From: a virus
Lineage: Duplodnaviria; Heunggongvirae; Uroviricota; Caudoviricetes
IMG/VR virus record: IMGVR_UViG_3300045988_149344
Length of the DNA stretch: 51,994 bases
Strand: one strand, 5' to 3'
A program made the translations under genes and the position numbers. The notes beneath the pieces were generated by a model. It was not told the DNA's origin, did not search any database, and saw nothing but the letters and a program-made list of their open reading frames with translations. This document shows, piece by piece, positions 33,143 to 34,372 of this stretch. Position 1 is the first letter of the stretch, and each line of letters begins with the position of its first letter.

Positions 33143-33232
33143 CAGGTAAGGGCGCTGGTGTGATTAACCAGATGAACGAGAAGGGGCCATCTGTTGGTCA
33201 GCGTCCTTTCCTGTTGCGTCTTCTTTTCAGCG
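33143..33232 (+). repeat. Long imperfect hairpin unit (copy a) of the CAACAGGTAAGGG family, upstream of tRNA-Asn
   Basis: 5' arm ACAACAGGTAAGGGCGCTG pairs with 3' arm CAGCGTCCTTTCCTGTTG around a ~45-nt insert; same arm sequence as the units downstream of tRNA-Thr. Confidence 0.5.
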
Positions 33233-33421
33233 TAACAGCGGTGCTTAACAGCACTTTGGGTACAGTTCCACGAATTTACGGGTATATCCCGTCATGCTGA
33301 AGGCGCTAATCACGCTGGAAGCCAGGGTTATGCATCCCCTGTTACCGAATTGCAGCCAGGGCGCGGTGCGCCGAAAAGCATACGGAGGTGGAAGCCCTCG
33401 CCGGAGACGTACCCGGCAAGT

Positions 33422-33497
33422 GATGGTGTAGCTCAGCGGTTAGAGCGGTTGACTGTTAATCAACGGGTCGATGGTTCAAATCCATCCACCATCGCCA
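33422..33497 (+). tRNA. tRNA-Asn (anticodon GTT), 76 nt with encoded CCA
   Basis: Acceptor GATGGTG/CACCATC, D-arm GCTCAGCGGTTAGAGC, anticodon loop CTGTTAA, T-arm GATGGTTCAAATCCATC, CCA end. Confidence 0.9.
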
Positions 33498-33499
33498 AT

Positions 33500-33575
33500 G
33501 CCGGTTTAGCTCAGTTGGTAGAGCGCCTGCCTTGTAAGCAGGATGTCAGCGGTTCGAGTCCGTTAATCGGCACCA
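33500..33575 (+). tRNA. tRNA-Thr (anticodon TGT), 76 nt with encoded CCA
   Basis: Acceptor GCCGGTT/AATCGGC, anticodon loop CTTGTAA, T-arm AGCGGTTCGAGTCCGTT; starts 2 nt after tRNA-Asn. Confidence 0.9.
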
Positions 33576-33577
33576 GC

Positions 33578-34372
33578 ACAACAGGTAAGGGTATTTTGCG
33601 ACGTCGGAGATCGCCGAGCTTGGCAGAGGGTTCGAATCCCTACGAAGTACCCTTACCGTTGTGATGAATGCGCAGGCTGATGCGCGAAAGACATTGCAGC
33701 TATTGCGGAAAAGAGCTGTTCGGCGGGGCAATTAAACGCCCGTGAGAGTCTGAAATAACCGCAAGCCGGAGATCAGCACCGGTCATCACAACACAACAGG
33801 TAAGGGCATTCTCCCTTATGGGGCTTGGCTTAAATGCATCGAGTGCTCTTACCGTTGTGATGAAGTGCAGCTCTTTGAAGCAACCAGAAGATAAGCATCT
33901 GGCTTCACAACATAAACCGCAGGAACGACCAATAAACGGTAGTCCGTATGGAGAACACCCCGTTGAGGAAGAGGCCTGGCCGGAACCGTAACCGGCACTA
34001 CAACGTTGAGAACACTGGCGTAACGGGGTCATATCCCAATCTACGAATAAATGTTGCGTTGCAGCGTGACAACCAGTGTTCTCAACATTGTGGTGAATGC
34101 ACAGGCTGATGTGCCGCAACTACAGTAGTGCGCGCTTTGCGGGGCTTGCTACAACCCTGTGTCGGAGTTCAGCACCGACCATCACAGTTTGATTCTCTGG
34201 CATGAGCATAACGCTGAAATAAGTCCAGCCTGGTGCGGCCCGATCACCCGCCGTTAGCTCCACGAAACGGAGCACGTAACAGGTAAGAGCATTCTCCTGT
34301 AACGGGTTCATATCCCAATCTACAGGTCCACCAAGAATGCTCTTTCCGTTGCGGTGAATGCGGCTAAGCGCA
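33578..34372 (+). repeat. Tandem array of four degenerate ~200-290-bp units, each a long imperfect hairpin, two with a GTGATGAATGCGCAGGCTGATGCGC-type tail hairpin
   Basis: Units begin near 33578, 33788, 33988 and 34276; shared arms (ACAACAGGTAAGGG ... CTTACCGTTGTG), shared inner motif GGG(G/T)TCATATCCCAATCTAC in two units, shared leader CGGAG(A/T)TCAGCACCG(G/A)(T/C)CATCACA; unit b contains a tRNA-like T-loop GGTTCGAATCC. Confidence 0.6.

What the first reader, a model, noticed from the sequence alone, without database searches (positions are those of the whole stretch)
33143..34372. Tandem array of degenerate long-hairpin repeats interleaved with the tRNA genes, one carrying a canonical tRNA T-loop
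Five related units (one before tRNA-Asn, four after tRNA-Thr, period ~200-290 bp) each form a 15-18-bp imperfect stem around a 25-55-nt insert; two inserts share GGG(G/T)TCATATCCCAATCTAC, two units end in the same tail hairpin (GCGCAGGCTGATGCGC-like), and three share a leader. Unit b contains GGTTCGAATCC plus D-arm-like and acceptor-like pairings but cannot fold into a canonical cloverleaf. The ORFs the track places here are repeat-driven artefacts. The array could be decayed tRNA gene copies, stable processed RNAs (as in the T4 tRNA region), or tRNA-like decoys against anticodon nucleases. None of these is demonstrated.
Basis: seen in the sequence. Interest (0 to 1): 0.7.

Follow-up and report, generated by a model that had tools for sequence, protein, structure and literature searches.

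The report
Phage P1 structured-RNA module array
The five long hairpins around the tRNA genes of this P1-type phage-plasmid are real RNA structures, copies of an unannotated RNA module found in many enterobacterial phages and in about a fifth of complete E. coli genomes, and just upstream lies a piece of RNA that is antisense to the host's ribosome-rescue RNA (tmRNA) and carries its own rescue-tag reading frame.

Summary
Observation confirmed. Window 33131-34478 holds five related long hairpins ("A units"). Four are each followed by a multi-hairpin "B domain", interleaved with tRNA-Asn and tRNA-Thr. All lie on the + strand in the untranslated leader of the C1-repressed ban operon of a P1-like phage-plasmid.

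They are not decayed local tRNA copies. They belong to a widespread A+B module family in lambdoid, P22-like, SSU5-like, Felix-O1-like and Vi1-like enterobacterial phages:
- The 20-bp A stem covaries strongly.
- G.U pairs are common and A.C pairs rare, which shows selection on + strand RNA.
- Apical inserts are hypervariable but about 90-fold enriched for T-arm hairpins.
- The tRNA-like cap of unit b is invariant in four diverged copies.

The last B domain is a sub-threshold STnc100 (Rfam) match. The others share its architecture; STnc100 and PasD are Hfq-bound prophage sRNAs.

Most likely mechanism (inferred, about 0.45): a polycistronic non-coding precursor in which the A stems act as double-strand processing or insulating punctuation, releasing tRNAs and clamped B-type sRNAs.

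Unexpected extra: window 32959-33050 holds a 37-nt antisense copy of host tmRNA nt 68-104, followed by a conserved 10-codon tmRNA-like tag frame (ANDDLMMVAA). No tRNA-like domain was found in cis.

The parts
32721..32766 (+). P1ban/P2ban promoters and the divalent C1 operator (Oban). This is the only promoter evidence upstream of the array.
   Evidence: Mapped from the P1 AF234172 annotation, which is 98% identical here. The simple sigma-70 scan finds no other promoter-like site in 32650-35950.
32861..32956 (+). 'dicF-like region' of the P1 annotation, ending in an intrinsic-terminator-like hairpin (32930-32949 plus a T run).
32959..32995 (+). Segment antisense to host tmRNA (E. coli ssrA nt 68-104). 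That region covers the 3' strand of pseudoknot 1, the A-rich resume determinant, the resume codon and the first five tag codons.
   Evidence: - Local alignment to reverse-complemented ssrA: z = 5.4, 0 of 500 shuffles.
- Predicted duplex -36.9 kcal/mol, against -17.2 +/- 3.0 for shuffled sequence and -22.4 with the phage's own tag region.
33018..33050 (+). tmRNA-like tag reading frame GCA AAC GAT GAT CTG ATG ATG GTA GCG GCC TAA (ANDDLMMVAA*). It has no start codon.
   Evidence: - Rfam tmRNA_permuted aligns its coding consensus here (24.1 bits; gathering score 47).
- 16 nucleotide variants in other phages all keep a 10-codon frame and the stop, with synonymous changes.
33131..33225 (+). A unit a: a long hairpin with no B domain after it.
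   Evidence: - Fold -48.8 kcal/mol, z = -5.3.
- A C-G to U-A compensatory change in D6 and SJ46.
33422..33497 (+). tRNA-Asn (GTT)
33500..33575 (+). tRNA-Thr (TGT). Its CCA end is 1 nt from the stem of unit b.
33577..33663 (+). A unit b: a long stem capped by a mini tRNA-like three-way junction. The cap is the hairpin GCGACGUCGGAGAUCGC, a linker, and the T arm AGGGUUCGAAUCCCU.
   Evidence: - Fold z = -4.8.
- The cap is invariant in 4 diverged copies whose stems covary.
- ARAGORN and Rfam do not call it a tRNA.
33658..33792 (+). B domain b. It has the closure GUUGUGAUGA/UCAUCACAAC, a first hairpin GCGCAGGCUGAUGCGC and a last hairpin CCGGAGAUCAGCACCGG.
   Evidence: - 97-98% identical to lambdoid and Stx phages, where it lies downstream of the repressor gene (cI) in mEp460 and Stx2a_1447.
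- Absent from P1, P7 and Ro157.
33792..33859 (+). A unit c.
   Evidence: - Fold z = -3.8.
- The same insert sits on an AU-rich covarying stem in the tRNA array of the Felix-O1-like phage Moogle.
33854..33911 (+). B domain c (short form), with last hairpin CCAGAAGAUAAGCAUCUGG.
   Evidence: Homologues in Klebsiella SSU5-like and P22-like phages. In c341 the closure covaries: GAUGCGAUGA/UCGCAUC.
33980..33995 (+). Small pre-hairpin CCGGAACCGUAACCGG immediately upstream of unit d.
   Evidence: A small hairpin, a terminator or a tRNA CCA end precedes many A units in the family.
33996..34095 (+). A unit d: a 23-bp stem whose insert contains GGGGUCAUAUCCCAAUCUAC.
   Evidence: - Inverted repeat I1, 91% complementary; fold z = -5.9.
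- The Klebsiella homologue has GAGACCACUGG/CCAGUGGUCUC, a compensatory change.
34087..34187 (+). B domain d, with first hairpin GCACAGGCUGAUGUGC and last hairpin UCGGAGUUCAGCACCGA.
34188..34274 (+). Leader module ending in the hairpin GCUCCACGAAACGGAGC (34257-34273).
   Evidence: The same module precedes A units in 17 distinct upstream contexts in other phages.
34275..34353 (+). A unit e, whose insert contains GGGUUCAUAUCCCAAUCUAC.
   Evidence: - Fold z = -3.8.
- The T-loop-like hairpin is deleted in Ro157c2YLVW while the stem is kept.
34348..34478 (+). B domain e, STnc100-like. Its 9-bp closure GUUGCGGUG/CACCGCAGC is followed by a U run.
   Evidence: - Rfam STnc100 RF02076: 37.8 bits (gathering score 47), E = 3.4e-6, model positions 31-147.
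- Fold z = -3.4.

Best explanation
The five units are copies of a modular structured-RNA element. Each copy is an 'A' hairpin, and all but unit a are followed by a 'B' multi-hairpin domain. The element is common in enterobacterial phages.

In this P1-type phage-plasmid the copies sit in the roughly 1.7-kb untranslated leader of the C1-repressed ban operon. They are strung together with tRNA-Asn, tRNA-Thr and a tmRNA-derived module. All are on one strand, with no internal promoter-like sites. They are therefore probably made as one long precursor when C1 repression is lifted.

Shown:
- The A stem (6 bp, a bulged A, then 14 bp) and the B closure are selected as + strand RNA helices.
- The scaffold is conserved while the apical inserts and the B centres are hypervariable.
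- Whole units are gained, lost and exchanged between unrelated phages at the scaffold sequences.

Inferred mechanism:
- The two-turn A helices act as punctuation. A double-strand-specific endonuclease (RNase III-type) or the helix itself would separate the tRNAs from the neighbouring RNAs.
- This would solve the problem that the stem starts 1 nt after the tRNA CCA end.
- Once an A stem is cut, its GUUGUG strand can re-pair with the next CACAAC. That would lengthen the B closure from 7 to about 10 bp and leave compact, end-clamped RNAs of 50-135 nt.
- These RNAs would be of the STnc100/PasD kind, acting as Hfq-associated regulators.
- The inserts are cargo. Some, such as the cap of unit b, are conserved tRNA-elbow mimics that would be released as small tRNA-like RNAs.
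For: Structure is real:
- z scores are -3.8 to -5.9.
- On 48 distinct A stems, 92.1% of cells are paired, against 82.3% in shuffles. 11 of 20 pairs change on both sides. 80 compensatory cells are seen against 24 expected, 0 of 500 shuffles. Slid controls give 34-60%.

The RNA strand is identified:
- G.U pairs make up 12-67% at several positions.
- A.C pairs, which would be G.U on the other strand, make up 0-4%.

The family is wide:
- 224 phage records by blastn.
- At least 168 distinct A+B units in IMG/VR loci.
- Unit b plus its B domain is present in 1060 of 5426 complete E. coli genomes, unannotated.
- Rfam calls nothing on the 16 loci tested.

B domains:
- The best 10-nt partner of the closure strand within 330 nt pairs at 8 or more of 10 positions in 164 of 168 units. 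Some of these best matches are spurious.
- The closure covaries in c341.
- B_e matches STnc100 at E = 3.4e-6. It shares its 5' half with the b/d type and its 3' half with true STnc100.
- STnc100 and PasD are expressed prophage sRNAs, and PasD is Hfq-dependent.

Modularity among P1 relatives: all junctions lie in the scaffold or in shared motifs.

Real tRNAs occupy equivalent slots: tRNA-Ser in P7, D6 and a Klebsiella phage, and tRNA-Arg in Moogle.

No promoter-like sites lie inside the array.
Against: - No RNA-seq, Northern or cleavage data for this locus were found. Two P1vir transcriptome papers do not address it.
- RNase III involvement rests only on helix length and position.
- The strong sequence conservation of the A stem, including a conserved bulged A, a U.U mismatch and a U.G wobble, suggests a sequence-specific partner rather than a generic dsRNase.
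- In SJ46 a d/e chimera destroys one hairpin, so single units are dispensable.
- B domains b-d do not hit STnc100 in Rfam even at E <= 10.
- The stems used for covariation were picked by requiring at least 16 of 20 pairs. The percentage paired is therefore inflated, although the compensatory counts are less affected.
Confidence: 0.45

Rival explanations
1. The leader is a battery of RNAs aimed at the host tRNA/tmRNA machinery. The upstream module would anneal to host tmRNA and supply an alternative tag template. The tRNA-elbow caps on A hairpins (unit b) and the cloverleaf-like B domains would act as mimics or decoys for factors that read tRNA or tmRNA shape, such as SmpB, RNase P, the CCA-adding enzyme, or tRNA-targeting defence nucleases.
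For: - An antisense copy of tmRNA nt 68-104 and a tag frame lie directly upstream of unit a.
- T-arm hairpins occur in 12 of 118 inserts, against 0.13 expected.
- The unit b cap is invariant in 4 diverged copies. In one contig it sits directly upstream of the tag module.
- Precedent: the tag-less mini-tmRNA of mycobacteriophage DS6A inhibits host tmRNA.
- B domains are laid out like a cloverleaf, with a 7-bp closure, a hairpin 2-3 nt after it and a last hairpin abutting the 3' strand.
Against: - Only 12 of 149 unique A+B units have a tag module within 600 nt, and only about 10% of inserts have a T arm.
- No unit has an anticodon arm, a G3.U70 pair or an encoded CCA.
- The loop-loop pairing in B is weakly supported: one compensatory case, two wobble cases and two disruptions.
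Confidence: 0.2
2. The units are transcription-elongation elements of the nut or put type, or an anti-Rho structure. They would keep RNA polymerase going through a long untranslated leader and its terminators.
For: - The commonest A 3' arm carries UGCUCUUU(C/A)C, like boxA (rrn UGCUCUUUAACAA, lambda CGCUCUUA, both recalled from memory). It is followed 12 nt later by a 5-bp hairpin.
- The elements lie in leaders of long operons. One example is downstream of the repressor gene (cI), ahead of the next co-oriented genes, in Stx2a_1447 and mEp460. Another is between PL and an N-like gene in c341. Others directly follow intrinsic-terminator-like hairpins.
- The window has a terminator-like hairpin 80 nt upstream of the module region.
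Against: - The boxA-like word is buried in a 20-bp helix.
- It is lost in covarying stem variants such as GGCGGCUUUU, GUGUCAUUU and GUUGGUUUA, and in the c341 short B domain.
- P1 is not known to encode an N homologue (from memory; not tested here).
- Elements placed after a terminator cannot suppress that terminator.
- Hypervariable inserts are not expected in a polymerase-binding RNA.
- HK022 and phi80 lack the motif in the regions checked.
Confidence: 0.15
3. The units are decayed duplicates of tRNA genes.
For: - Unit b has a canonical T arm, a D-arm-like hairpin and an acceptor-like stem.
- Units d and e have a T-arm-like GGG(U/G)UCAUAUCCC.
- Real tRNAs occupy equivalent slots in relatives.
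Against: - The scaffold is shared with phages that have no tRNA nearby: 67 of 80 loci.
- The stems covary.
- The unit b cap is invariant while its stem diverges.
- Inserts of homologous hairpins are unrelated to each other.
- The Rfam tRNA model gives no hit at E <= 10.
Confidence: 0.04
4. The units are DNA-level elements: recombination or insertion sites of the attC or MITE type, or single-strand hairpins for replication near the ban helicase gene.
For: - Imperfect inverted repeats with variable centres.
- Unit gain and loss, with exchange between unrelated phages. B_b is 98% identical between P1-like and lambdoid phages, and junctions lie in the scaffold.
Against: - The strong G.U over A.C asymmetry shows that one RNA strand is selected.
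- The units are always co-oriented with the tRNAs.
- No integrase or transposase is associated with them.
- The recombination seen is explained by short homology at the conserved scaffold.
Confidence: 0.05

Closest known systems
STnc100 (Rfam RF02076) and PasD prophage sRNAs of Salmonella and pathogenic E. coli
   Same: - A domain closed by (C/G)AUGGUG.../GUGRUGA pairing with CACCAU/UCAYCAC.
- GAAU followed by a 5-bp hairpin at the 5' side, a variable centre, and a CCGG...CCGG hairpin abutting the 3' closure strand.
- Phage-borne and often next to tRNA genes.
- B_e aligns to model positions 31-147 (E = 3.4e-6).
   Different: - True STnc100 has a promoter-like sequence just upstream and a terminator-like hairpin downstream, and no A hairpin.
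- B_e is below the gathering score, and B_b to B_d give no Rfam hit.
- Here the domains are internal parts of a long leader and alternate with A hairpins.
Phage polycistronic stable-RNA regions and RNase III punctuation (T4 tRNA cluster with species 1 and 2 RNAs; T7 early RNase III sites; DicF cut out of the dicB operon transcript). Recalled from general knowledge.
   Same: tRNAs and small stable RNAs are made from one transcript. Repeated hairpins of about two helical turns lie between the functional units.
   Different: No cleavage has been shown here. The A stem is sequence-conserved across unrelated phages and carries hypervariable or tRNA-like caps, which the T7 and T4 sites do not.
tmRNA (RF00023, RF04321) and the tag-less mini-tmRNA of mycobacteriophage DS6A
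   Same: - The upstream module has a resume-type GCA codon and a 10-codon AND...AA/VA tag frame with coding-type conservation.
- The unit b cap resembles a tRNA-like domain stripped of its body, as in DS6A.
   Different: - No tRNA-like domain with G3.U70 and a CCA end was found in cis.
- The tag frame is preceded by an antisense copy of host tmRNA, which no described tmRNA has to my knowledge.
- The unit b cap sits on a closed 20-bp stem.
Bacterial Y RNAs (YrlA, RF02553)
   Same: A long stem formed by the two ends, plus a tRNA-like module with D and T arms. Such RNAs are also found in phages (from memory).
   Different: - The Rfam YrlA model hits only the two real tRNAs (25.6 bits; gathering score 69), not the units.
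- In YrlA the long stem takes the anticodon-stem position (from memory). Here it takes the acceptor position.
- E. coli has no Rsr/Ro protein (from memory).
PeSL 'mobile regulatory cassettes' of T4-type phages (from memory)
   Same: Short conserved stem-loop cassettes in non-coding regions. They mediate modular shuffling between related genomes.
   Different: PeSLs combine an early promoter with a small stem-loop. The A/B units carry no promoter-like site and are much larger structured RNAs.

Membership tests
tRNA (RF00005 / ARAGORN) | A complete cloverleaf recognised by tRNA finders | tested here: not met
   ARAGORN finds only Asn, Thr and Met(CAT). Rfam tRNA hits only those three, and gives no hit on any unit at E <= 10.
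tRNA (RF00005 / ARAGORN) | T arm with a UUCRANY loop next to the 3' strand of the acceptor stem | tested here: met
   Unit b has AGGGUUCGAAUCCCU 1-2 nt before the 3' arm. Units a, c, d and e lack a canonical T loop.
tRNA (RF00005 / ARAGORN) | Anticodon arm | tested here: not met
   In unit b only 9-10 unpaired nt lie between the D-like hairpin and the T arm.
STnc100 (RF02076) | Reaches the Rfam gathering score | tested here: not met
   B_e scores 37.8 bits against 47. B_b, B_c and B_d give no hit at E <= 10.
STnc100 (RF02076) | Closing helix, a 5' hairpin after GAAU, and a 3' CCGG hairpin abutting the closure | tested here: met
   Seen in B_b, B_d and B_e and in the family at large, by comparison with 67 true STnc100 loci.
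STnc100 (RF02076) | Stand-alone gene with its own promoter and terminator | tested here: not met
   There is no promoter-like site in 32650-35950. Only B_e is followed by a U run.
tmRNA (RF00023 / RF04321) | Tag reading frame starting at a resume codon and ending in a stop | tested here: met
   Window 33018-33050. 16 variants keep the frame, the length and the stop. This module lies outside the finding's coordinates.
tmRNA (RF00023 / RF04321) | tRNA-like domain (acceptor stem with G3.U70, T arm, CCA end) in the same RNA | tested here: not met
   The tRNA-domain part of RF04321 is not aligned. ARAGORN -m gives nothing in the window or in P1 relatives. A T-arm-plus-CCA scan finds only ordinary tRNAs.
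RNase III processing hairpin | About two turns (20 bp or more) of largely uninterrupted dsRNA | tested here: met
   Stems of 6 + 14 bp with one bulge, and up to 23 bp in unit d. The pairing is supported by covariation.
RNase III processing hairpin | Staggered cleavage in vivo or in vitro that depends on rnc | not testable with these tools
   No expression or cleavage data were available.
nut site (boxA + boxB) | Single-stranded boxA (GCUCUUUA-like) followed by a boxB hairpin, plus a cognate N protein | tested here: inconclusive
   A boxA-like word is present in most 3' arms. It is paired in the stem and lost in covarying variants and in c341. Whether the window encodes an N protein was not tested.
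Bacterial Y RNA (YrlA, RF02553) | Match to the covariance model | tested here: not met
   The only weak hit (25.6 bits; gathering score 69) spans the two real tRNAs.
DNA-level hairpin sites (attC or MITE type) | Symmetry of pairing on both DNA strands and an associated recombinase | tested here: not met
   G.U pairs are frequent and A.C pairs rare, so only the + strand folds well. No integrase or transposase lies next to the array.

The most novel reading that the evidence does not exclude
Phage P1 and many other enterobacterial phages carry an RNA that hijacks the host's ribosome-rescue system.
- A 37-nt antisense arm (window 32959-32995) would anneal to tmRNA across its resume codon.
- A tethered phage tag template (33018-33050, ANDDLMMVAA) would then be read in place of the host tag ANDENYALAA.
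- This would amount to a hybrid two-piece tmRNA assembled from host and phage RNAs.
- The neighbouring A/B modules, with their tRNA-elbow caps, would form a wider phage toolkit of tRNA/tmRNA-shaped RNAs acting on host translation quality control or on tRNA-directed defences.
Probability: 0.15. Interest if true: 0.92.

Novelty: new variant of a known kind. Interest (0 to 1): 0.72.

Why it matters
P1 is a textbook phage, yet about 1.7 kb of its ban-operon leader is annotated only with two tRNAs, a 'dicF-like region' and two doubtful ORFs.

This work shows that the interval is built from conserved RNA modules. The same modules occur in lambdoid, Stx, P22-like, SSU5-like, Felix-O1-like and Vi1-like phages, and in a fifth of complete E. 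coli genomes. No annotation and no Rfam family covers them.

The result ties the orphan prophage sRNAs STnc100 and PasD to a larger modular system. It also gives a concrete, testable processing model.

The adjacent anti-tmRNA plus tag module, if functional, would be a new way for a virus to interfere with or re-programme trans-translation. That would bear on the long-standing observation, recalled from memory, that some phages depend on host tmRNA.

Tried and rejected
- **phi80 M3 RNA** (a known RNase P substrate) as a homologue. In the record it is annotated as the oop homologue, and phi80 has no A/B motif.
- **HK022.** No A/B motif was found in the 30-40.7 kb region fetched. The put sites themselves were not located.
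- **Homology of window 33051-33421 to the tmRNA body.** A chain of short word matches looked colinear, but global alignment gives z = -0.5.
- **A tRNA-like domain for the tag frame.** The ARAGORN tmRNA mode, Rfam and a T-arm-plus-NCCA scan found only ordinary tRNAs. They also found two odd mini tRNA-likes in T751 and Moogle.
- **Kissing interaction between the first and last hairpin loops of B** (GCUGA/UCAGC). There is one compensatory case (P7), two wobble cases and two disruptions, so it is left as tentative.
- **boxA/nut reading.** The word is not conserved in covarying variants.
- **YrlA (Y RNA).** No model match.
- **Literature.** No paper in the library contains the scaffold sequences or the tag peptide. 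The two P1vir RNA-seq papers do not analyse the interval. The P1 genome paper was not held under the identifier tried.
- **One wasted query.** A broad literature search returned only unrelated papers.
- **A mis-specified RNA duplex run.** The long-sequence run was uninformative and was redone on short segments.
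Full report
**Context.** The window is a P1-like phage-plasmid. Window 32750-34500 is 98-99% identical to phages vB_EcoM-813R1, RCS47 and P1. Rfam finds the P1 hallmarks C4, isrK and sok elsewhere in the window. Mapping the annotation of P1 AF234172 places the region as follows:
- It lies downstream of dmt (30482-32746).
- It follows the C1-controlled promoters and operator of the ban operon (about 32721-32766).
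- It follows a 'dicF-like region' that ends in a terminator-like hairpin (32930-32949).
- It lies upstream of two ORFs, a third tRNA (CAT anticodon; trnI in P1) and ban.

No sigma-70-like site was found anywhere in 32650-35950, against 3.2 expected. The P1 record places two ORFs, plp and upl, on the minus strand across the array. The corresponding ORFs here have no Pfam match.

**Checking the observation.**
- The repeat finder recovers the leader, the tail and the shared 25-nt insert motif, together with the inverted repeats.
- Each of the five units folds far better than shuffled sequence, with z from -3.8 to -5.9.
- Unit b holds AGGGUUCGAAUCCCU and a D-arm-like hairpin. It is not called a tRNA by ARAGORN or by the Rfam tRNA model at E <= 10.
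It is the first hairpin of a second kind of domain. After each long hairpin ('A'), the sequence GUUGYGRUGA pairs with UCAYCACAAC 50-135 nt downstream. This closes a multi-hairpin 'B' domain.
- The same GUUGUG can pair either with the CACAAC at the foot of its own A stem or with the CACAAC that precedes the next A stem.

**The units belong to a widespread family.**
- A blastn search with the array finds 224 phage records from Escherichia, Klebsiella, Salmonella, Shigella, Citrobacter, Cronobacter and Edwardsiella phages of unrelated types.
- The 137 nt of B_b are 97-98% identical to lambdoid and Stx phages. There they lie downstream of the repressor gene (cI), ahead of the next co-oriented genes.
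- Two IMG/VR scans with scaffold words gave more than 130 contigs.
- Their common grammar is a conserved scaffold: GCACAACAGGUAAGAGCAUUG, an insert, CAGUGCUCUUUCCGUUGUGGUGAAUGCGCAGGCUGAUGCGC, a variable centre, then GCCGGAGAUCAGCACCGGCCACCACAAC.
- I parsed 168 distinct A+B units. Inserts range from 5 to 216 nt, and B domains have a median length of 120 nt.
- Rfam at its gathering thresholds calls nothing on these elements in 16 loci.
- PGAP annotates nothing under the 1197 places in 1060 of 5426 complete E. coli genomes that hold unit b plus B_b.
- No paper in the held library contains the scaffold sequences.

**RNA-level selection.**
- On 48 distinct A stems, 11 of 20 pairs show changes on both sides. 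80 compensatory cells are seen against 24 expected, 0 of 500 shuffles. Slid controls are 34-60% paired against 92% observed.
- The stems were selected for at least 16 of 20 pairs, so the percentage paired is inflated.
- G.U pairs are frequent. One conserved U.G reaches 67%, and positions 1-3 show 12-25%. A.C pairs are 0-4%, so the helix is selected on the + strand RNA, the strand of the tRNAs.
- Conserved irregularities are a bulged A after 6 bp and a U.U mismatch at position 9.
- Compensatory changes are also seen between the window and a Klebsiella phage for unit d. They are seen in D6 and SJ46 for unit a. Moogle carries an AU-rich stem with the insert of unit c. The B closure covaries in c341.

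**Inserts and the tRNA connection.**
- Inserts of homologous hairpins are mostly unrelated to one another.
- Strict T-arm hairpins occur in 12 of 118 unique inserts, against 0.13 expected. They usually lie 1-4 nt before the 3' arm.
- The cap of unit b consists of the hairpin GCGACGUCGGAGAUCGC, a linker and a T arm. It is invariant in four copies whose stems and linkers differ. It is therefore conserved, not decaying.
- tRNA genes are co-oriented and adjacent in 13 of 80 loci.
- In P7, D6, a Klebsiella phage-plasmid and Moogle, real tRNAs sit in slots equivalent to A units.

**Modularity among P1 relatives.**
- P1 is the window minus B_b and A_c.
- P7 and Ro157 lack A_b and B_b.
- D6 and P7 replace the 3' part of the array with another B domain, tRNA-Ser and another A hairpin.
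- Ro157 has lost the T-loop-like hairpin of unit e but keeps the stem.
- SJ46 has a d/e chimera.
- All junctions lie in the scaffold or in shared motifs.

**Relation to known RNAs.**
- B_e aligns to Rfam STnc100 positions 31-147 (37.8 bits; gathering score 47; E = 3.4e-6).
- True STnc100 is a stand-alone B-type domain, with a promoter-like sequence upstream and a terminator-like hairpin downstream, often after a tRNA-Arg gene.
- STnc100 and the structurally related PasD are prophage sRNAs. PasD is Hfq-dependent, detected by Northern blot and has many RIL-seq partners. The function of both is unknown.
- B_b to B_d share the architecture but give no Rfam hit.

**Most likely mechanism.** I infer a polycistronic non-coding precursor made from Pban when C1 repression is lifted.
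- The two-turn A helices act as punctuation. The stem of unit b starts 1 nt after the CCA of tRNA-Thr, so an endonucleolytic cut in the helix would be needed to free that end.
- Cutting would let GUUGUG re-pair with the next CACAAC and clamp the B domain.
- The B domains would then act as STnc100/PasD-type regulators, and some caps would be released as tRNA-like RNAs.
- The structure, the strand, the family membership and the modularity are shown. Processing and function are inferred.
- Two P1vir transcriptome papers do not address the interval.

**Unexpected neighbour.**
- ARAGORN called a 'permuted tmRNA' tag (ANDNVFLAVA) about 90 nt upstream of an A hairpin in Moogle. That led to homologous frames in T751 and in the window.
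- In the window the frame lies at 33018-33050: GCA AAC GAT GAT CTG ATG ATG GTA GCG GCC TAA, which reads ANDDLMMVAA. The E. coli tag is ANDENYALAA.
- Rfam tmRNA_permuted aligns its coding consensus here but not its tRNA domain (24.1 bits; gathering score 47).
- Sixteen nucleotide variants from P1-like, SSU5-like, lambdoid, Felix-O1-like and Vi1-like phages all keep ten codons, the AND start, an Ala end and the stop. They show synonymous changes, including TAA to TAG. The other two frames have scattered stops. In the window the tag frame has no in-frame ATG, GTG or TTG between the preceding stop codon and the resume codon (sequence).
- The segment just upstream (32959-32995) is a significant antisense match to E. 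coli ssrA nt 68-104: z = 5.4 here and up to 10 in other phages, with at most 1 of 500 shuffles reaching the observed score in the phages that match significantly; the alignment was weak in L007 (z 0.8) and L156 (z 3.6).
- The predicted duplex with tmRNA is -36.9 kcal/mol. Shuffled sequence gives -17 +/- 3, and the phage's own tag region gives -22. The same ranking holds in all 12 phages tested.
- The invariant AGUUUUCGU pairs with host codons GAC GAA AAC U, whereas the phages' own codons 4-6 vary.
- No tRNA-like domain was found in cis.
- The rest of the leader is not homologous to the tmRNA body.
- The module is present in 660 of 5426 E. coli genomes, unannotated. It accompanies only 12 of 149 unique A+B units.
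- A tag-less mini-tmRNA of phage DS6A that inhibits host tmRNA is the nearest precedent.
- Whether the P1 module blocks tmRNA, re-programmes it or is a relic is open.

**Verdict.** The array is a P1-specific five-fold concentration of a widespread, undescribed phage RNA module whose B part is related to known sRNAs. The processing model is plausible but untested. The adjacent anti-tmRNA and tag module is the most surprising element and deserves its own follow-up.

Noticed in passing
window 32959-33050: A 37-nt antisense copy of host tmRNA (ssrA nt 68-104) is followed 22 nt later by a conserved tmRNA-like tag frame (ANDDLMMVAA*). There is no start codon and no tRNA-like domain in cis. The module is present in classical P1 and in 660 of 5426 complete E. 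coli genomes, unannotated.
   Followed up: yes
window 33064-33086; L343, L342, L017 and L156 downstream of their tag frames: A hairpin follows the tag frame. Its stem covaries (CAAGG/CCUUG, CGGGG/CCCCG, CAGGG/CCCUG, GUGAGG/CCUCAU). In most phages its loop is the conserved UCUUCCGAYU; the window has a different loop.
   Followed up: partly
window 33848-33856 and 34340-34349 (3' arms of A units c and e); consensus of the family: The commonest 3' arm carries UGCUCUU(U/A)CC, which resembles boxA of rrn operons and lambda nut sites. It is buried in the stem and is lost in covarying variants.
   Followed up: partly
window 33670-33685 with 33766-33782, and 34099-34114 with 34162-34178: The loops of the first and last hairpins of the B domains are complementary (GCUGA/UCAGC). 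P7 shows a compensatory G-C to A-U change, but two other phages break the pairing.
   Followed up: partly
window 33700-34119 (-) and 34120-34449 (-); P1 genes plp and upl: The minus-strand ORFs annotated in P1 as a putative lipoprotein and 'Upl' lie entirely over the A/B array. They have no Pfam match and are on the strand opposite to the selected RNA, so they are probably not genes.
   Followed up: partly
window 34504-35548: This P1 relative has a 78-aa membrane-like ORF and a 275-aa SPFH/Band-7 lipoprotein where P1 has tciA, tciB and tciC. Ro157c2YLVW has the same arrangement.
   Followed up: partly
window 32861-32956: The 'dicF-like region' of the P1 annotation ends in a strong terminator-like hairpin only about 160-190 nt after the ban promoters. 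Transcription of the whole array, the tRNAs and ban therefore requires read-through.
   Followed up: no
L343 about 1430-1497 (Klebsiella phage T751) and L342 about 1099-1139 (Citrobacter phage Moogle): These are mini tRNA-like sequences with a 7-bp acceptor stem (GGCGAAG/CUUCGCC), a D arm and a T arm, but only a stub in place of the anticodon arm. ARAGORN does not call them as tRNAs. They lie upstream of the tag modules.
   Followed up: no
L006 (Salmonella phage SJ46) about 2548-2632: A chimera of the 5' half of unit d and the 3' half of unit e, joined at the shared GGGKTCATATCCCAATCTAC motif. It deletes B_d and the leader module and leaves arms that cannot pair.
   Followed up: no
L341 1795-1860 (Salmonella phage c341, P22-like): A short c-type B domain lies between PL and the N-like antiterminator gene, where nutL is expected. 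Its last hairpin CCAGAAGAUAAGCAUCUGG is the same as in the window (33884-33902). It could be a boxB-type site for that N family.
   Followed up: no
window 35576-35651: The tRNA called Met(CAT) corresponds to P1 trnI (tRNA-Ile2, where lysidine is expected on the CAT anticodon) according to the P1 annotation.
   Followed up: no
L017, L012, L080 and L189 upstream of their tag modules: In several lambdoid contigs the antisense arm AGUUUUCGUC is also the 3' strand of a cis helix with GGCGAAAUCU at the foot of an A-type hairpin. GGCGAAAUCU itself resembles the host tag codons GACGAAAACU. This may sequester the arm.
   Followed up: no
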